Source: a virus
Lineage: Duplodnaviria > Heunggongvirae > Uroviricota > Caudoviricetes
Strand: one strand, 5' to 3'
Length of the DNA stretch: 64,000 nt
Virus record (IMG/VR): IMGVR_UViG_2875713109_000001
Within the stretch, counting starts at the first letter, position 1. The number at the start of each line of letters is the position of its first letter. The position numbers and the translations under genes were made by a program. The notes under the pieces were generated by a model. It worked only from the letters and a program-made list of their open reading frames with translations. It searched no databases and was not told where the DNA came from. This document shows positions 50,671 through 59,103 of this stretch, in pieces.

Positions 50671-51063
50671 TTATTCTACGCTTTCGATAAGAAGACCATG
50701 TTCATAACATTTAAGCTCATCGCCTTCGTACAGGAATTGGTATCCAATACCACCATTTTCATGGACATTAGGGAATAACTCATAACTCACTGAAGAGCAA
50801 ATCACACCAATGCAGCGATCAACGCCTTCTCGTCCTTCAGTGCTGAAAAAATCCTCTTCGGTAAGAACATGAGTACATTGCTCATCAGCATAGGTCGGAA
50901 ATACATGCTCGATGCAATCCGGGTGTTTTAAACCAAGCTGATCGGCAAGCTCGAAAGCATGACGGTATTGTTCAGATCCTGGCTTGCCAACAGTGATGTG
51001 CTCAATTTTGTAGATTGAAGTCGCTTTGTTGATAGTTTTCTTTACTGTTACTTTATCAGACAT
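50671..51063 (-). CDS. hypothetical protein
   Basis: 130 aa, ATG start. Confidence 0.4.
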   Translation of the reverse strand: MSDKVTVKKTINKATSIYKIEHITVGKPGSEQYRHAFELADQLGLKHPDCIEHVFPTYADEQCTHVLTEEDFFSTEGREGVDRCIGVICSSVSYELFPNVHENGGIGYQFLYEGDELKCYEHGLLIESVE

Positions 51064-51074
51064 AAAAATCCCTT

Positions 51075-51407
51075 TTAGTTACCTCTGATAGCGCGGTTGT
51101 AATCATTAACGTTGCGATTCTTCCTGTTAATCCCCATCAGCATCGTTTCTGTATCGAGGATATACGCTGGCAGATCATCAAAATATTCACTGCTAAACTC
51201 TGGCATCCTGCACATAAATGCACTTTTGGGGGCAGGGTGGTTAACCTTTGTCGGCGTCGGCGTTAAATTCGGTGATCGACTGCCGGAGCAACCGCTGAGT
51301 GTCAGCAGGAATGCGCTGGCGAACATTACCCGCCGCAACCAGTTGTTTCTGAACTTCAGCTTTTCGTTCCATTTGCCTGTCAGCATATTTGGCTTGTTCT
51401 GATTCAT
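51075..51407 (-). CDS. Pro-rich lipoprotein, candidate o-spanin (Rz1-like) overlapping the 3' end of the upstream gene
   Basis: Lipobox LTLSGC then SGSRSPNLTPTPTKVNHPAP; candidate ATGs at 51407 (SD AGGAAG), 51386, 51326. Confidence 0.45.
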   Translation of the reverse strand: MNQNKPNMLTGKWNEKLKFRNNWLRRVMFASAFLLTLSGCSGSRSPNLTPTPTKVNHPAPKSAFMCRMPEFSSEYFDDLPAYILDTETMLMGINRKNRNVNDYNRAIRGN

Positions 51408-51663
51408 TTTTCACTTCCTGGCTGTGAAAATGTTGCTCTGCTTTGTTCATCGTCTCAATGGTCTGGTTAAGATCCATTATTGACTTATCACGTTCCTTAA
51501 CAGCCTGATCAAGACTGCCAATTTTCTCCATGGCTTGCTTTAGCTGATGACGTTCCCATGCAAACCCAGCACCAACAAGTGTGCAAATCAGAACAAGAAC
51601 ACCAGTAGCAGCAAGTTTCTCCTTCAAAGACAAAGCTGTTTTTAACGTAGAAAAGAATGACAT
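51241..51663 (-). CDS. membrane-anchored coiled-coil protein, candidate i-spanin (Rz-like)
   Basis: ATG at 51663 with SD AGGAGGAAG; TM AATGVLVLICTLVGAGFAW then Q/E/K-rich coiled coil. Confidence 0.5.
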   Translation of the reverse strand: MSFFSTLKTALSLKEKLAATGVLVLICTLVGAGFAWERHQLKQAMEKIGSLDQAVKERDKSIMDLNQTIETMNKAEQHFHSQEVKNESEQAKYADRQMERKAEVQKQLVAAGNVRQRIPADTQRLLRQSITEFNADADKG

Positions 51664-51702
51664 GTCTTCCTCCTGAAGAAAAATTATCAATGAAGTCCTT
51701 TG

Positions 51703-52491
51703 TTACTGTGCCGCTTTGTTTAATTCATCAAGAACAGAATCAGGAACCAAAGCGGCAACTGCGCTGGCTGTGCTGACCTTATTTGCTGATGCTTCCGCAA
51801 GCGCGGTACCGATAGCATGGTTATAAGCAGTTATGGCTACGTTGGCGCTTTCATTCGCTCGTTCATACTGCTGTTGTAACGCAGTTGTGGGCGCTGTTGT
51901 CTGGTTGAAAACAACCCCAAACTGTTCAGTTGCTACTTTCAGAGATTCAATTTGCTCTTCTGTTAGTGCTGGTGGGGGAGTGGCAGTGCCGCCGCCTGAA
52001 CCAGAGCCTGACGAGCTTCCTGAGCCAGTGTTAAGGGTCTGGTTAATCTCCCCCATAGCAGCGACTAAACTTGATGTATTAAGCGCGTTAACAGCGTCCT
52101 CAAGCGATTTAGTAATATTCACATCACCAATGGCAATAGAGATCGGCAGTTCTGAAACTTCTCGCTCATTAGCACGGCAGTAAACATCCCAACCAATATC
52201 GAGTTGAAGCAGCATTGACAGATCTGCATAACCAGCCAACAGGTCCGCGTGCTTAGTTGCCAGTTCTCCAATGTTCGTTAAGCCAGTTGTGGTTGTTCTG
52301 ATCGTTGAAACATAGCTGGTAATAGTGTCGGGATAGACAATTGTATCCAGAATTAATCCGGTCAATTCTTCTGCAAGCAGTTTTGCTGTGTTAGCACTGT
52401 TTCGTGCCGATGTTATGGCACCAGGTGTTTTCATCCCACCGGCGGCGGCCAATTTTTTATATGCGGATAACTGGTAGTCTTTTTCCAGCAT
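51703..52491 (-). CDS. hypothetical protein with Ser/Gly linker
   Basis: ATG at 52491 with SD AGGAGAT; track frame opens at 52548. Confidence 0.45.
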   Translation of the reverse strand: MLEKDYQLSAYKKLAAAGGMKTPGAITSARNSANTAKLLAEELTGLILDTIVYPDTITSYVSTIRTTTTGLTNIGELATKHADLLAGYADLSMLLQLDIGWDVYCRANEREVSELPISIAIGDVNITKSLEDAVNALNTSSLVAAMGEINQTLNTGSGSSSGSGSGGGTATPPPALTEEQIESLKVATEQFGVVFNQTTAPTTALQQQYERANESANVAITAYNHAIGTALAEASANKVSTASAVAALVPDSVLDELNKAAQ

Positions 52492-52499
52492 GATATCTC

Positions 52500-52784
52500 C
52501 TAACTTACCTGAACCAGGCCGTCTCCGGACGCTACGGTAGATCCGCATGAAACAGGGTCACCAACGCATACGATCCCTTTACCATTGACGGTAAACCATG
52601 CCCTGGTTGATATAGCTTGCCCACCGTGCGTACTGTTTCCATCGGTATGCTGTGCATATTGCTTACCATCAACTAACACTTCGACTCCGTTGACTTTAAG
52701 TAGTGGTTCACTCTCTACAGGAGGCCTGGATGGGAATCCTCCGTGCCCCGAACAAATGCTGTCTTTTGTTGCAATACTTGCCAC
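52500..52784 (-). CDS. small Gly/Cys/His-containing protein, possibly PAAR-like
   Basis: GTG start with SD GGTGA; no internal Met; TVNGKGIVCVGDPVSCG segment. Confidence 0.3.
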   Translation of the reverse strand: MASIATKDSICSGHGGFPSRPPVESEPLLKVNGVEVLVDGKQYAQHTDGNSTHGGQAISTRAWFTVNGKGIVCVGDPVSCGSTVASGDGLVQVS

Positions 52785-52864
52785 GTCATCACCAATTATT
52801 TGCTCTGGTTTTCGTTATTTTAACTTAGGTTACTTGTGGTCTACATGGTGTTAACTATTAAATA

Positions 52865-52881
52865 ATTGCTCTAATAAATAT
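52865..52881 (+). promoter_or_regulatory. C1 operator-like site ATTGCTCTAATAAATAT
   Basis: 16/17 match; upstream of the rdgC-dmt operon. Confidence 0.5.
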
Positions 52882-52952
52882 TGTTTTTTATGTCGTGTTT
52901 TCGGTACCATTCAGCCATCGCCCTTCAATGGGTATTTGTTTGGAGTCGTCAG

Positions 52953-53237
52953 ATGCAGATGGAGCTAATAAGCCGCAAAGAGTTCGATAGCCGTGTAACC
53001 AGCGGTGAACTCGACAACTTGCAGGCTATCAAGGTGAAAGAAGGCTTTTGCCTCATTGGGAATCAGAGCGGAACAAATCGCGTTTTTATGCTTCGCCGTA
53101 CGGATTTGAAGCCATTTGTCTGGAAGAACGAAATTGGTCCCAGCTCATACGCTCAAACTAGGGGGTGCCTCAACCTGGCCTTTTTCTACAAAAACGAGCT
53201 TTCTGTGGTTGATATTCAAGGGTTACAACATGTTTAA
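52953..53237 (+). CDS. small hypothetical protein upstream of rdgC-like gene
   Basis: ATG 52953 with SD GGAG; track frame opens at 52881. Confidence 0.35.
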
Positions 53238-54135
53238 GCACTGGAAAAACATTACTATTTTTAAACTTTCTCGTGAGGCGGATCTGACCGACTTGGAAGA
53301 TAAAAAGAAAATGATCCTTTTCACGCCATGCGGTAGTCAGGATATGGCCAAGTTCGGTTTTGTATCTCCATTTGGTGATAATTCCGAAGTTATCGCTATG
53401 CATGGAAATGGTTTTATCCTTGTTGAAGCAAAGCGCGAAACAAAAATTCTTCCCCCGCCGGTTATCCAGCGAGCTATTCAAGAAAAAATTGAAAAACTCG
53501 AGCAAGAACAAGCGCGTAAACTGAAGAAAACAGAGAAGGACTCCCTGAAAGACGAAGTTCTGCATTCTCTTCTGCCACGGGCTTTTTCAAAGTTCTCTGT
53601 TATCCAGGCGATCTACGACGGTTCAACTAAACGTATCTATATCAATGCCAGCGCGCGGCAGGCAGAGGATATGCTCGCGCTTATGCGTAAATCTCTGGGT
53701 TCTCTTCCTGTTGTTCCCCTAAGTGTTGAAAATCCCATTGAATTAACGCTGACCGACTGGGTACGTGATGGTAGTGCTCCACAGGGATTTCAAATGGGGG
53801 ATGCGGCAGAACTTAAGGCAGTGCTTGAGGATGGCGGTATTGCCCGAGTGAAAAAGCAGGACTTGGGAAGTGATGAAATATCCACACACCTGGAAGCTGG
53901 CAAGCTCGTCACTAAGTTGGCACTCGACTGGCAGAACCGCATTAAATTTACACTGGACCATAACTTCAGCCTTACCAGCGTCAAATTTGCGGATGAATTG
54001 CTTGAGCAGAACGCTGATATTGATAGTGAAGATGTTGCGCAGCGACTGGACGCAGATTTCTTCCTGTTGACCAGTGAAATTTCGTGCCTGGTTGATGCTC
54101 TGGTAAATGCCCTTGGTGGAGAGGCTAAGCAGTGA
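53230..54135 (+). CDS. RdgC-like recombination-associated protein
   Basis: N-terminus [20 protein letters not shown]...[19 protein letters not shown] resembles E. coli RdgC; ATG overlaps upstream stop. Confidence 0.75.
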
Positions 54136-56396
54136 AAGAGCTGTGCTATGGATCTGTTTGCAGTGGAATTGAAGCCGCGAGTATTGCCTGGGAACCGTTG
54201 GGTATGCGTCCGGCGTGGTTTGCTGAAATCGAGCCTTTTCCATCTGCCGTTCTTGCGCACCGCTGGCCCCATGTCGCCAACCTTGGCGACATGACAAAAC
54301 TTGCCAAAAAAGTCCTGGCTGGGGAAATCGAATCCCCTGATGTGCTCGTCGGGGGAACACCTTGTCAGGCATTCAGTATCGCTGGATTACGTGGTGGGCT
54401 TGATGATGAGCGTGGCGCGCTAACTTTAAAGTATGTGGAGCTTGCAAATGCAATTGACGACAAACGGGCTGAGTCATTTCTCAAACCAGCCGTTATCGTC
54501 TGGGAAAATGTCCCAGGAGTCTTGTCATCGGCAGATAACGCCTTCGGATGTTTCCTTGCCGGATTGGCTGGAGAAGATGCGCCATTTGAACCAGGTGATC
54601 GACCTGAATCAGGAAAAAGTAACGCGTTCTGGCGGTGGGATGGCAAAACCGGTTGCCATGCTCCAAAGTGGCCGCAGTGTGGTTGTATTTATGGACCGCA
54701 GCGAAAGGTGGCCTGGAGAATCCTTGATGCCCAATACTTCGGAGTGGCACAACGACGCCGACGCGTGTTTGTTGTCGCAAGTGCTCGAACAGACCTCGAT
54801 CCCGCAACGGTACTTTTTGAGTTCGAAGGCGTGCGCCGGGATATTGCGCCGAGCCGAAAAAAGAAGGAAATCGCTTCCGCCATTATTGCAAATGGCGCTG
54901 CAATCAGTGGCGAAAGCCTAAATCCATGCCTACATGCTGACATGCCACCCGGTATGAAATCGACGAAAGCCGTAAACGCTTTCAGGATGGCAGCATTTGG
55001 GGAATATATTGACGATGAAACCGCATCGACAGTAAAGGCAAGAGATTTTAAAGATGCCACTGACCTTGCCGTTTTTAGCAGCACAGGAGCAGCTTTTTGG
55101 TCAGAAGGGCATGGTACATTGCGGGCACGTGAGCAAGAAAGCCATGAGCATCTTGTTACATTGGCTTTTCCTGAGCGTATGAGCGGTACACAACATGCTG
55201 CAACTAAGAATACTTCACCATCTCTAATGGCTAAAAATCCAACAGCTGTTTGCTATGAAGTAAGAAACGCAGAAGTAGCTGTCCGCCGTCTTACCCCTGT
55301 CGAATGTGAAAGGCTGCAAGGTTTTCCTGATGGGCATACGTTGATCCCGACGGAAAAGCGTAAAAAAGTTAGTTCAGATGAACTGGCATATCTTCGCAAT
55401 CACTATCCAGATTTAAGCGAAGAAGAGGCCGTGATGCTTGCAGCTGACGGACCGCGTTACAAAGCGATCGGCAATAGTATGGCAATACCAGTAATGCGCT
55501 GGATTGGCGATCGGATTACTAAGGCCGTATGTCGGCAGAAAGAAGGAAGTGAAACAAAAGAGCGAAAAGTTAAACCAGCGGCAGAATTCGAACGGTCCAT
55601 ATTCAAATGGGCTGGTGGAAAATTTGGTGTTCTGGAACAAATCTTTCGCTATTTGCCAGAAGGGAAGCGCCTGATTGAACCTTTCGTTGGTGGCGGAGCT
55701 GTCTTCATGAATGCCGGATACCAGGAAAATCTGCTAAATGATGTGAATGCTGACCTGATTAACTTTTACAAGACTCTGCAACGCGAGGCGCATTCACTTA
55801 TCACTCTGGCACATCGTTTTTTCCTGGACTACAACACCCAGGAGGGATACTTGGCAGTACGGAATGCGTTTAACAAACAAGTCTATGATGATTTACATCG
55901 CGCAGCGGCGTTTTTGTTCCTGAACCGACATTGTTTTAACGGATTGACGCGTTACAACCAGGCCGGTGAGTTCAATGTCGGTTATGGGAAGTATAAAACT
56001 CCGTATTTCCCATTACAGGAGATGGAAGCCTTCCTCGGTGCGGAAGGGCGGTCTGAGTTTGTATGCGGTGATTTTGCAGCGGTGATTGAAGCTGCCGGAG
56101 AAGGAGATGTCATCTTTTGCGATCCGCCGTATGAACCGCTCCCCAATACAGAGGGGTTCACGAACTATTCCGGTCATGACTTTAAGTTTGAAGAGCAAAA
56201 ACGCCTGGTGTCTCTGTTGACGGATGCTCATCGTCGAGGTGCAAAGGTTCTCATTACTAACAGTGGCGCGCCAAACATCAGAGAGCTTTATCATGACAGT
56301 GGCTTCAGAGTGGAACCTCTTTTTGCCAGACGTTCTGTGTCTTGTAAGGGGGACACTCGAGGTGTAGCTCATGACGTTTTGGGTATATTGCTCTAA
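54132..56396 (+). CDS. dmt: bifunctional DNA methyltransferase: N-terminal C5-cytosine (Dcm-like) + C-terminal N6-adenine (Dam-like)
   Basis: 754 aa; [11 protein letters not shown] and VIVWENVPG (C5 MTase); [13 protein letters not shown]...[12 protein letters not shown] and FCDPPYEP (Dam-like); GTG start with SD GGAGG. Confidence 0.9.
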
Positions 56397-57147: not shown

Positions 57148-57223
57148 GCCGGTTTAGCTCAGTTGGTAGAGCGCCTGCCTTGTAAGCAGGATGTCAGCGG
57201 TTCGAGTCCGTTAATCGGCACCA
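57148..57223 (+). tRNA. tRNA-Thr (anticodon TGT)
   Basis: Acceptor GCCGGTT/AATCGGC, D-arm GCTCAGTTGGTAGAGC, anticodon loop CTTGTAA, T-loop TTCGAGT, encoded CCA. Confidence 0.9.
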
Positions 57224-57955: not shown

Positions 57956-58192
57956 ATGCAGAACAATCCGAACAAATGTCGAACGCTATGGGTGCGGTTA
58001 TATATTTATGCCGTCCTCTGTTTGATTGTGTCACTGGTTCTGTATGTTTGGCTTTTGCCAAATATGATCTCATCTAACAGCACAATACTTGTATTGTTGG
58101 GAGTCCTTCTCGCGCTCATTTACCCGGCTTTCGCAGTAGTCTTTTTTCGTGAAAAAACCAGGAAATTAATTAATGAAAAAAACGTTGATTAG
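57956..58192 (+). CDS. small two-helix membrane protein coupled to SPFH lipoprotein
   Basis: 78 aa; ATG with SD GGAGTGAGAGG; overlaps downstream start. Confidence 0.45.
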   Translation: MQNNPNKCRTLWVRLYIYAVLCLIVSLVLYVWLLPNMISSNSTILVLLGVLLALIYPAFAVVFFREKTRKLINEKNVD

Positions 58193-59000
58193 TGCAGCGA
58201 TTATTTTGGGTTCTTTATGTCTGACCGGATGCGATCGGGTAGAGCCAGGTAACGTAGGGATCAAAGTAAATAAGCTGGGGGATGATAAAGGTATCGGTGA
58301 AGTAGTTGGCGTTGGTCGCTACTGGACAGGCTTGAATACTGAAGTTTATATCTTCCCGACCTTTAAGCAAATGAAGACATACGATGAGCCGTTCAGCTTC
58401 CAGATGAGCGACGGAACAACCATTGGTTACCACATCGGCGTAGCCTACAAGGTTGATCCAGCAAAAGTCACAACGGTATTTCAGACCTATCGCAAAGGTG
58501 TAGATGATATTACTGATACCGATCTACGCCAGAAGGTTGCAGATGCTCTGAACCGGTTAGCCAGCAAAATGACCACCGACAAATTTATCGACGGTGGCAA
58601 ATCTGAATTGCTTGATGCAGCCCTTAAAGACATTCAGGAAGAAATGACGCCAATCGGCATTCAGGTGATGAGCCTCTCTTATGTAGGTAAGCCAGAATAC
58701 CCGCCAACAGTTATTGACAGTATTAACGCCAAAGTCACGGCAAACCAAAAAACCCTGCAACGCGAGCAAGAGGTCAAACAACGTGAAGCAGAGGCCAACA
58801 TGCTGCGCGCGGAAGCTGCCGGACAGGCTGATGCTATTCGCACAAAAGCCCAGGCCGAAGCTGATGCCATTCGTTTACGTGGTGAAGCTCTGCGCCAGAA
58901 CCCCGGTGTTATGGAGTTGGAAGCGATCAACAAATGGAACGGTACATTACCGCAGTATATGACCAGTAATACCGCTGTTCCGTTTGTTCCGGTGAAATAA
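58173..59000 (+). CDS. SPFH/band-7 (prohibitin-like) lipoprotein
   Basis: Lipobox LCLTGC; SPFH-like core; C-terminal coiled coil QREQEVKQREAEANMLRAEAAGQADAIR. Confidence 0.7.
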   Translation: MKKTLISAAIILGSLCLTGCDRVEPGNVGIKVNKLGDDKGIGEVVGVGRYWTGLNTEVYIFPTFKQMKTYDEPFSFQMSDGTTIGYHIGVAYKVDPAKVTTVFQTYRKGVDDITDTDLRQKVADALNRLASKMTTDKFIDGGKSELLDAALKDIQEEMTPIGIQVMSLSYVGKPEYPPTVIDSINAKVTANQKTLQREQEVKQREAEANMLRAEAAGQADAIRTKAQAEADAIRLRGEALRQNPGVMELEAINKWNGTLPQYMTSNTAVPFVPVK

Positions 59001-59027: not shown

Positions 59028-59103
59028 GGCCCTTTAGCTCAGTGGTTAGAGCTGGCGACTCATAATCGCACGGTCACCGGTTCAAGTCCGGTAGGGGCCA
59101 CCA
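59028..59103 (+). tRNA. tRNA-Ile2-like (anticodon CAT, lysidine-type)
   Basis: Near-identical in layout to remembered E. coli ileX: GGCCCTTTAGCTCAGTGGTTAGAGC...CTCATAA...GGTTCAAGTCC...AGGGGCCACCA. Confidence 0.85.

What the first reader, a model, noticed from the sequence alone, without database searches (positions are those of the whole stretch)
52500..52784. Met-free small protein with PAAR-like Gly/Cys pattern upstream of the spanin-like pair
The 94-codon ORF starts at GTG with a good SD and has no internal Met; the segment TVNGKGIVCVGDPVSCG recalls PAAR-type spike-tip proteins. A spike tip encoded far from the baseplate genes would be unusual.
Basis: inference. Interest (0 to 1): 0.3.

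Follow-up and report, generated by a model that had tools for sequence, protein, structure and literature searches.

The report
Phage P1 spike-tip protein UpfC

Summary
The ORF is real. It runs 52784 to 52500 on the minus strand, with a GTG start, 94 codons, a GGTGA Shine-Dalgarno and no internal Met.

The window is a P1-like phage-plasmid, 96.5-97.9% identical in DNA to phage P1. The ORF is P1 gene upfC.

- **Identity.** Its product is 93/94 identical to PDB chain 9vyi_A, named "UpfC".
- **Homology.** It matches the T4 spike tip gp5.4 (E about 1e-7) and a T6SS PAAR protein (4jiv_D, E 4e-4).
- **Metal site.** The three His and one Cys that align with gp5.4's His and Cys are present (H14, H46, H53, C80).
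- **Literature.** Published cryo-EM of P1 places one UpfC on the trimeric gp5 spike. UpfB, encoded by the next gene, forms a "tripod" anchored on the tip.
- **Dispensability.** Deletion and CRISPRi studies find upfC dispensable for plaque formation.
- **Location.** It lies 9 kb from spike gene 5 and 18-26 kb from the other baseplate genes examined. Scattered tail genes are normal for P1.

I add two small, unproven points. A close match to the P1 late-promoter motif lies 32 nt upstream of the GTG and is not annotated in P1 or P7. The upfB start is probably 19 codons downstream of the reference annotation and directly coupled to the upfC stop.

The parts
52500..52784 (-). upfC coding sequence: 94 codons, GTG start, TAG stop. 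It encodes the PAAR-like spike-tip protein.
   Evidence: ORF. It matches P1 upfC, P1_gp066. It is 93/94 identical to PDB 9vyi_A. PHROG 281 E 2e-30. Against P1 it shows 13 synonymous and 1 non-synonymous change.
52789..52793 (-). Shine-Dalgarno GGTGA, ending 4 nt before the GTG.
   Evidence: Read directly from the sequence.
52817..52835 (-). Candidate P1 late (Lpa-type) promoter, AAGTAACCT-AAGT-TAAAAT. The -22 box is at 52835-52827 and the -10 at 52822-52817. Inferred only; not annotated in P1 or P7.
   Evidence: The pattern AAGTNACTT-N4-TANAAT with up to 1 mismatch gives 4 hits against 0.10 expected. The other three are the annotated promoters LPdar, LPs and LP23. With up to 2 mismatches LPpro is also found. 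The reference P1 copy is weaker.
52865..52881 (+). C1 repressor operator (Odmt/Op68 equivalent), ATTGCTCTAATAAATAT, in the divergent upfC / uhr-hrdC-dmt intergenic region. Listed as context.
   Evidence: P1 annotation at the homologous position; sequence read.
51703..52491 (-). upfB, 262 aa if it starts at ATG 52491. The literature describes its product as a 'tripod' anchored on the spike tip. The AGGAG Shine-Dalgarno overlaps the upfC stop codon.
   Evidence: PHROG 1559 E 9e-138, with the alignment starting at residue 20 of the 281-aa ORF. OP279344 annotates 789 nt. The D6 UpfB N-terminus aligns to this Met. Role from PMC12810830.
51241..51663 (-). ppfA, an Rz-like inner-membrane spanin candidate.
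   Evidence: PHROG 89 E 7e-25; P1 annotation.
51075..51407 (-). mlp, an Rz1-like lipoprotein and outer-membrane spanin candidate. It overlaps the 3' part of ppfA in another frame and extends past the ppfA stop.
   Evidence: PHROG 30284 E 1e-75; P1 annotation.
50671..51063 (-). upfA, the last gene of the same minus-strand gene string. Function unknown.
   Evidence: PHROG 1453 E 2e-60; P1 annotation.
50637..50657 (-). Terminator-like hairpin followed by a T run, just after upfA. This is the likely end of the upfC-upfB-ppfA/mlp-upfA transcription unit.
   Evidence: Consensus scan. The number of such hits in the region is not above chance, so this is suggestive only.
61799..62431 (-). Gene 5, the trimeric central spike on which UpfC sits. 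It lies 9.0 kb from upfC. It has no HxH motif near its C-terminus.
   Evidence: PDB 9vzk_q 'Gp5' E 1e-136. Pfam Phage_base_V OB domain E 4.5e-4. Translation.
62424..63440 (-). Gene 6, the baseplate hub.
   Evidence: Same size and order as P1 gp6. Role from PMC12810830.

Best explanation
The ORF is upfC of a P1-like phage-plasmid. Its 94-residue product is a PAAR-like spike-tip protein.

**How it works.**
1. One copy folds into a small cone.
2. The cone is held together near its apex by a metal ion. The ligands are three His and one Cys, here H14, H46, H53 and C80.
3. The cone caps the blunt end of the trimeric gp5 beta-helix spike at the centre of the baseplate.
4. When the sheath contracts, this sharpened tip is the first part of the tail driven through the outer membrane.
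5. In P1 the tip also carries the UpfB 'tripod'. UpfB is encoded by the next gene, whose ribosome-binding site overlaps the upfC stop codon, so the two are probably made together.
6. The gene is dispensable for plaque formation in the laboratory, like T4 gene 5.4.

**Shown here:** the ORF itself, its identity with P1 UpfC and the solved chain, homology to gp5.4 and PAAR proteins, presence of residues aligning with the gp5.4 His and Cys, gene order, and the lack of a C-terminal HxH motif in gp5.

**Taken from the literature:** the position on the spike, the monomer-on-trimer arrangement, the UpfB tripod, and dispensability.

**Inferred:** the metal-binding role of the four residues, late Lpa-dependent transcription from a motif at 52835-52817, translational coupling with upfB, and a fitness role on hosts with altered envelopes.
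For: - **Source of the window.** Its DNA is 96.5-97.9% identical to P1, P7 and relatives across 50500-54200, and the ORF falls on P1 upfC.
- **Solved structures.** 9vyi_A 'UpfC' E 1.7e-60, 93/94 identical. 9f4b_BA, a 97-residue chain, E 4.8e-10. T4 gp5.4 (5iv5_ZA, 4ku0_D) E about 1e-7. T6SS PAAR 4jiv_D E 3.7e-4.
- **Metal ligands.** In those alignments H14, H46, H53 and C80 line up with His and Cys residues of gp5.4 and 4jiv_D. All six His and Cys residues are kept in phage D6 UpfC at 57% identity. The gp5.4 paper describes a three-His, one-Cys metal site and reports that H14A abolishes spike binding (PMC12407873).
- **Profile hits.** PHROG 281 E 2e-30. NCBIfam T6SS_PAAR_dom E 4.5e-9 over residues 4-93. 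Pfam PAAR_motif E 8.5e-6.
- **Purifying selection.** 13 synonymous and 1 non-synonymous difference from P1.
- **Partner spike.** Gene 5 is present in the window (PDB 9vzk_q, E 1e-136). Its product lacks a C-terminal HxH motif. [quoted passage not shown]
- **Cryo-EM.** Monomeric UpfC sits on trimeric gp5, with the UpfB tripod on the tip (PMC12810830; bioRxiv 2025.07.21.665459).
- **Dispensability.** PMC9024508 and PMC10695390.
- **Conserved pairing.** upfC-upfB adjacency is kept in phage D6.
- **Late-promoter motif.**, with four annotated P1 late promoters as positive controls.
Against: - The Pfam PAAR_motif score is 0.6 bits under the curated cut-off (26.4 against 27), and the match covers only residues 51-91.
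- The literal P-A-A-R sequence is absent.
- UpfC was not detected by LC-MS/MS of P1 virions (PMC9024508). The authors attribute this to one small copy per virion.
- In the bioRxiv study the UpfC model was an AlphaFold prediction superimposed on the map without refinement. The direct structural evidence therefore rests mainly on the PLoS Pathogens work and the PDB entry.
- My own single-sequence AlphaFold model was unusable (pLDDT 40.5), so I did not check the fold independently.
- No phenotype is known for P1 upfC.
- The proposed late promoter is weaker in reference P1 and is not annotated in P1 or P7.
Confidence: 0.95

Rival explanations
1. It is a 'moron' or host-directed PAAR protein. In this reading it belongs to, or feeds, a bacterial type VI secretion system, as the PHROG category 'moron, auxiliary metabolic gene and host takeover' and the label 'PAAR motif of membrane proteins' would suggest. 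It would not be a virion part.
For: PHROG 281 carries that category and label. The best NCBIfam hit is the T6SS PAAR model. The gene sits among plasmid-maintenance and methylase genes rather than tail genes. It was not found by virion LC-MS/MS.
Against: - The NCBIfam score is 36.3 bits against a cut-off of 124, so it is not a T6SS PAAR equivalog.
- The closest solved relatives after UpfC itself are a 97-residue chain very similar to T4 gp5.4 (9f4b_BA) and gp5.4 itself.
- 1177 phage records carry a homologue, nearly all in T4-like myophages.
- The protein has no effector extension.
- Cryo-EM places it on the P1 spike.
Confidence: 0.02
2. It is a small enzyme, a 'phospholipase'. Many T4-like gp5.4 homologues carry that name in GenBank, and so does PDB chain 9f4b_BA.
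For: Product names under many tblastn hits and the molecule name of 9f4b_BA.
Against: - No lipase family was hit in Pfam, NCBIfam or PHROGs.
- All 94 residues are accounted for by the PAAR-like cone.
- The T4 homologue is structurally a spike tip.
- The name appears to be an inherited mis-annotation.
Confidence: 0.01
3. It is a chance ORF or a pseudogene, not a functional gene.
For: It has a GTG start and a short length. The gene is left unannotated in some P1-like records, OP279344 and MH160767.
Against: - 13 of 14 nucleotide differences from P1 are synonymous.
- It is 57% identical to the D6 orthologue, with all His and Cys residues kept.
- It has homologues of the same length with solved structures.
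Confidence: 0.01

Closest known systems
Phage P1 UpfC (P1_gp066; PDB 9vyi chain A)
   Same: It has the same length, the same GTG start and 93/94 identical residues. It has the same neighbours: upfB, ppfA/mlp and upfA downstream, and the divergent uhr-hrdC-dmt unit upstream.
   Different: There is one substitution (A86S) and 13 synonymous changes. The -22 box of the candidate late promoter is closer to the consensus here than in reference P1.
Phage T4 gp5.4 spike tip (PDB 4ku0 chain D, 5iv5 chain ZA)
   Same: It is a single-domain protein of about 95 residues. Identity is about 30% over nearly the full length, at E about 1e-7. The three His and one Cys positions align. It is a monomer capping a trimeric gp5 beta-helix, and it is dispensable for plaque formation.
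   Different: - T4 5.4 lies next to its spike gene; upfC is 9 kb from gene 5.
- P1 gp5 lacks the lysozyme domain.
- The P1 tip additionally carries the UpfB tripod.
- No conditional phenotype is yet known for upfC. T4 5.4 is needed on deep-rough LPS hosts.
T6SS PAAR-repeat proteins (the PAAR chain of PDB 4jiv; VCA0105 and c1882 are the T6SS tip proteins named in PMC12407873; Pfam PF05488; NCBIfam NF033420)
   Same: It is homologous over the whole domain, at E 3.7e-4 to 4jiv_D and E 4.5e-9 to NF033420. The His and Cys positions align, and the conserved V-G-D follows the third repeat. It does the same job of sharpening a trimeric VgrG- or gp5-type spike.
   Different: - The literal PAAR motif is replaced by EVLV and GIVC at the aligned positions.
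- The score is far below the T6SS equivalog cut-off (36 against 124 bits).
- The context is a phage tail, not T6SS.
- There is no effector extension.
Fused apex domains of P2 gpV-type spikes (HxH iron site)
   Same: It serves the same function, a metal-stabilised sharp apex at the end of the central spike.
   Different: In those phages the tip is part of the spike polypeptide and uses three HxH motifs. Here gp5 has no C-terminal HxH and the tip is a separate protein.

Membership tests
P1 UpfC orthologue | Near-identical full-length sequence to P1 UpfC | tested here: met
   93/94 identical to 9vyi_A and to the translated P1 upfC.
P1 UpfC orthologue | Same genomic position: between upfB and the divergent uhr-hrdC-dmt unit, next to repA/oriR | tested here: met
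   Collinear megablast match to P1 at 96.5-97.9% identity, and the P1 feature table.
PAAR-repeat superfamily (Pfam PF05488 and relatives) | Profile match above the curated threshold | tested here: inconclusive
   Pfam gives 26.4 bits against a cut-off of 27, E 8.5e-6, over residues 51-91 only. Support from other profiles is strong: PHROG 281 E 2e-30 and NF033420 E 4.5e-9 over residues 4-93.
PAAR-repeat superfamily (Pfam PF05488 and relatives) | Three PAAR-type sequence repeats that give a monomer local threefold symmetry | tested here: inconclusive
   The literal P-A-A-R sequence is absent. In the alignment to 4jiv_D the two aligned PAAR motifs correspond to EVLV (35-38, followed by DG) and GIVC (70-73, followed by VGD). 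T4 gp5.4 is equally degenerate. The first repeat (about residues 3-8, SIATKD) was judged by eye only.
PAAR-repeat superfamily (Pfam PF05488 and relatives) | Metal site of three His and one Cys near the apex | tested here: met
   H14, H46, H53 and C80 align with His and Cys residues of gp5.4 and 4jiv_D, and are kept in D6. The ligand role comes from PMC12407873, which names only H14. Metal binding by UpfC itself was not tested.
PAAR-repeat superfamily (Pfam PF05488 and relatives) | Cone-shaped fold of three beta-hairpins | tested here: inconclusive
   My single-sequence AlphaFold model had pLDDT 40.5, so no fold search was run. The literature reports 'striking structural similarity' of UpfC to gp5.4 (PMC12810830), and a solved chain of 99% identity exists (9vyi_A).
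T4 gp5.4-type phage spike tip | Significant full-length similarity to gp5.4 in a single-domain protein of about 95 residues | tested here: met
   E 8.6e-8 over residues 7-90 against 5iv5_ZA, and E 4.8e-10 against 9f4b_BA.
T4 gp5.4-type phage spike tip | Partner spike with an OB fold and beta-helix, and no C-terminal HxH apex | tested here: met
   Gene 5 is in the window (9vzk_q, E 1e-136). Phage_base_V OB domain E 4.5e-4. There is no HxH near the C-terminus. The rule comes from PMC12407873.
T4 gp5.4-type phage spike tip | One copy physically bound to the end of the gp5 trimer in the virion | not testable with these tools
   Reported by cryo-EM for P1. Not detected by LC-MS/MS.
T6SS PAAR protein (NCBIfam NF033420 equivalog) | Score above the equivalog cut-off, and a T6SS gene context | tested here: not met
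   36.3 bits against a cut-off of 124. The neighbours are phage and plasmid genes. It is a homologue of these proteins but not a member of this equivalog.

The most novel reading that the evidence does not exclude
upfC, upfB, the ppfA/mlp spanin pair and upfA may form one late transcription unit. It would be driven by an unannotated Lpa-dependent promoter at 52835-52817, making it an 'envelope-crossing' cassette: tip and tripod for entry, spanins for exit. UpfC may then be conditionally required, as T4 gp5.4 is, on hosts with altered outer-membrane or LPS structure, acting partly by anchoring the UpfB tripod.
Probability: 0.3. Interest if true: 0.3.

Novelty: already known. Interest (0 to 1): 0.08.

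Why it matters
This matters little as a discovery. It confirms that reading the sequence alone correctly spotted a PAAR-like spike tip, but the protein, its place in the virion and its dispensability are already published for P1.

There are three practical points.
- **Missed or misnamed genes.** upfC is left unannotated in some P1-like records. Its T4-type homologues are often misnamed 'phospholipase' or 'PAAR motif of membrane proteins' and classed as a moron.
- **upfB start.** The reference start of upfB is probably 19 codons too far upstream.
- **Promoter.** A likely late promoter for the tip-tripod-spanin gene string is not annotated.

The open biological question is what advantage the tip and the UpfB tripod give P1. 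It could be tested along the lines used for T4 gp5.4.

Tried and rejected
- **AlphaFold2 on the single sequence.** Mean pLDDT was 40.5 and pTM 0.27, too poor for a fold search, so none was run.
- **Large protein searches.** I ran no further search on building an alignment, because a solved chain of 99% identity already answers the question.
- **Literature search.** A search for 'UpfC' alone returned power-engineering papers. Adding 'phage' found the relevant ones.
- **P1 genome paper.** It is not held under PMC523184, the id I recalled for it. I took the late-promoter layout from the GenBank feature tables instead.
- **Sigma-70 scan of 50600-53200.** It found 3 sites against 4.0 expected. One is upstream of upfC (TTAAAA-17-AATAAT, 52823-52795), but its start point would leave no room for the Shine-Dalgarno. 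I rejected it as uninformative.
- **Phage D6.** The region upstream of D6 upfC shows no obvious copy of the P1 late-promoter motif, so there is no comparative support from that relative.
- **Window-to-P1 mapping.** The BLAST mapping in the sandbox failed because locus L002 was not available there. I mapped genes by ORF sizes and order instead.
- **'Met-free' as a signal.** Rejected. It is expected by chance in 7-15% of proteins of this length.

Full report
**1. The observation**

The ORF exists as described, on the minus strand. It runs from GTG at 52784-52782 to TAG at 52502-52500 and has 94 codons.

Reading upstream in frame, a TAA lies at 52817-52815. No ATG, GTG or TTG lies between it and the GTG, so the GTG is the first possible start. 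GGTGA at 52793-52789 ends 4 nt before the GTG and can pair with the 3' end of 16S rRNA over five bases.

The protein has no internal Met, and the quoted segment TVNGKGIVCVGDPVSCG is residues 65-81. Lack of Met carries no information, because 7-15% of proteins this long would lack it by chance.

The gene is real. Against P1 upfC there are 14 nucleotide differences, 13 synonymous and one non-synonymous (A86S).

**2. Where the window comes from**

The stretch 50500-54200 is 96.5-97.9% identical to phage P1, P7 and other P1-like phage-plasmids.

In the P1 reference record the ORF is upfC (P1_gp066). Its product line reads 'PAAR motif of membran proteins' and its note reads 'unknown protein function', with 31% identity to T4 ORF 5.4.

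Gene order on the minus strand is upfC, upfB, ppfA with the overlapping mlp, and upfA. oriR and repA follow. Upstream and divergent lie a C1 operator and uhr-hrdC-dmt.

ppfA and mlp hit Rz-like and Rz1-like spanin families, PHROG 89 at E 7e-25 and PHROG 30284 at E 1e-75.

**3. What the protein is**

Solved structures:

| Chain | Molecule | E-value | Note |
|---|---|---|---|
| 9vyi_A | 'UpfC' | 1.7e-60 | 93/94 identical |
| 9f4b_BA | 97-residue chain deposited as 'Phospholipase', very similar to T4 gp5.4 | 4.8e-10 | |
| 5iv5_ZA, 4ku0_D | T4 gp5.4 | about 1e-7 | |
| 4jiv_D | T6SS PAAR chain | 3.7e-4 | |

Profile libraries:

| Library and family | E-value | Score against cut-off |
|---|---|---|
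| PHROG 281, 'PAAR motif' | 2e-30 | no cut-off given |
| NCBIfam NF033420, T6SS_PAAR_dom | 4.5e-9 | 36.3 bits against 124; residues 4-93 of a 94-position model |
| Pfam PF05488, PAAR_motif | 8.5e-6 | 26.4 bits against 27 |

In the pairwise alignments H14, H46, H53 and C80 line up with His and Cys residues of gp5.4 and of 4jiv_D. The T4 study describes a tetrahedral site of three His and one Cys that binds iron, and reports that H14A abolishes binding to the spike (PMC12407873). That study names only H14, so the ligand role of the other three residues in UpfC is inferred from the alignment. All six His and Cys residues are kept in the phage D6 orthologue at 57% identity.

The literal P-A-A-R sequence is absent. 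The positions aligned to the two PAAR motifs of 4jiv_D read EVLV and GIVC, and the third is followed by the conserved V-G-D. T4 gp5.4 is equally degenerate.

tblastn finds a homologue in 1177 phage records, almost all in T4-like myophages.

**4. What is already published**

- Gonzales et al. 2022 predicted by HHpred that UpfC is the gp5.4-like spike tip. They found that deleting upfC does not affect plaque formation, and did not detect the protein by LC-MS/MS. They attribute the miss to one small copy per virion (PMC9024508).
- A genome-wide CRISPRi screen scores upfC as non-essential (PMC10695390).
- A 2026 cryo-EM study built an atomic model of monomeric UpfC on trimeric gp5. It reports 'striking structural similarity' to T4 gp5 and gp5.4, and describes UpfB as a novel three-trimer 'tripod' anchored on the tip (PMC12810830).
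- A 2025 preprint also places UpfC at the needle tip, but using an AlphaFold model fitted without refinement.
- The T4 preprint notes that gp5.4 and UpfC are the only tail-protein pair of T4 and P1 that BLAST detects. [quoted passage not shown]

**5. The partner and the location**

Gene 5 (61799-62431, minus strand) is in the window. It matches PDB 9vzk_q 'Gp5' at E 1e-136 and the Phage_base_V OB domain at E 4.5e-4. Gene 6 follows at 62424-63440.

The gp5 C-terminus (...AAQVSVDKA) has no HxH motif. [quoted passage not shown]

upfC lies 9.0 kb from gene 5. Between them are dmt, three tRNA genes, an SPFH-domain gene, ban and dbn. It lies 18-26 kb from tub, sit and the wedge genes.

That separation is real, but P1 tail and baseplate genes are spread over several operons in every P1 record. 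The 'unusual location' is a known trait of the phage.

**6. Two small additions (inference)**

*(a) The upfB start.*

The reference record starts upfB at the ATG equivalent to 52548. That gives 281 aa and a 49-nt overlap with upfC.

Four things point instead to ATG 52491, giving 262 aa:
- AGGAG lies 5 nt upstream of it and overlaps the upfC TAG.
- The PHROG 1559 alignment begins at residue 20 of the long form.
- OP279344 annotates 789 nt.
- D6 UpfB aligns from its own Met1 to this Met.

Tip and tripod genes are then 8 nt apart and probably translationally coupled. They stay adjacent in D6.

*(b) A candidate late promoter.*

From the annotated P1 promoters LP26 and LP23, the late-promoter layout is a 9-bp near-palindrome, 4 nt, then a -10 hexamer.

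With up to one mismatch, AAGTNACTT-N4-TANAAT hits the window four times against 0.10 expected by chance. Three hits coincide exactly with the annotated LPdar, LPs and LP23. With up to two mismatches LPpro is also recovered.

The fourth hit is AAGTAACCT-AAGT-TAAAAT at 52835-52817 on the minus strand. Its -10 ends 32 nt before the upfC GTG. It lies in the only intergenic region that can hold the upfC promoter.

Caveats:
- I relaxed position 5 of the pattern to N after seeing the first hits.
- The -22 box is weaker in P7 and OP279344 (AAATAACCT) and weaker still in reference P1 (AAATAATCT).
- No promoter is annotated there in P1 or P7.
- D6 shows no obvious copy.

**7. Verdict**

This is the known P1 spike-tip protein UpfC, a degenerate PAAR-superfamily member of the T4 gp5.4 type and not a T6SS PAAR equivalog. 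Novelty: already known. Interest is low.

Noticed in passing
window 52817-52835 (-): A close match to the P1 late-promoter layout, AAGTAACCT-AAGT-TAAAAT, lies 32 nt upstream of the upfC GTG. It is not annotated in P1 or P7. The same pattern search recovers the four annotated late promoters LPpro, LPdar, LPs and LP23 in the window. The -22 box is more degenerate in reference P1.
   Followed up: partly
window 52491 versus 52548 (-): The upfB start in the P1 reference record (281 aa, overlapping upfC by 49 nt) is probably wrong. ATG 52491 has an AGGAG Shine-Dalgarno overlapping the upfC stop. It also matches the PHROG profile start, the OP279344 annotation and the D6 UpfB N-terminus.
   Followed up: yes
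GenBank OP279344.1 and MH160767.1 (loci L002 and hit H16); many T4-like records; PDB 9f4b chain BA: upfC is left unannotated in some P1-like genome records. gp5.4-type homologues are widely labelled 'phospholipase', 'HNH endonuclease' or 'PAAR motif of membran proteins', and PHROG classes them as a moron. These look like propagated misnomers for a spike-tip protein.
   Followed up: partly
window 51075-51663 (-): The spanin pair has an overlapped layout. mlp (the Rz1-like lipoprotein) starts inside ppfA in another frame and runs 166 nt past the ppfA stop. It sits directly downstream of the tip and tripod genes, so entry and exit envelope functions share one gene string.
   Followed up: partly
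window 58173-59000 (+), between tRNA-Thr (57148-57223) and tRNA-Met (59028-59103): A 275-aa ORF with a strong SPFH/Band 7 domain (Pfam E 1e-30). It occupies roughly the position of tciA-tciC in P1 OP279344, where tciA is annotated at only 435 nt. I did not compare them further.
   Followed up: no
window 21078-25589 (-): A very long ORF (1503 aa) lies downstream of the late promoter LPs and gene R. It is presumably the tail-fibre gene S. I did not compare its size and sequence with P1, but it could mark a host-range variant.
   Followed up: no
window 50637-50657 (-): A GC-rich hairpin followed by a T run lies right after upfA and before oriR. It may end the upfC-to-upfA transcription unit and shield the plasmid origin from read-through. 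The scan's hit count in the region is not above chance.
   Followed up: no
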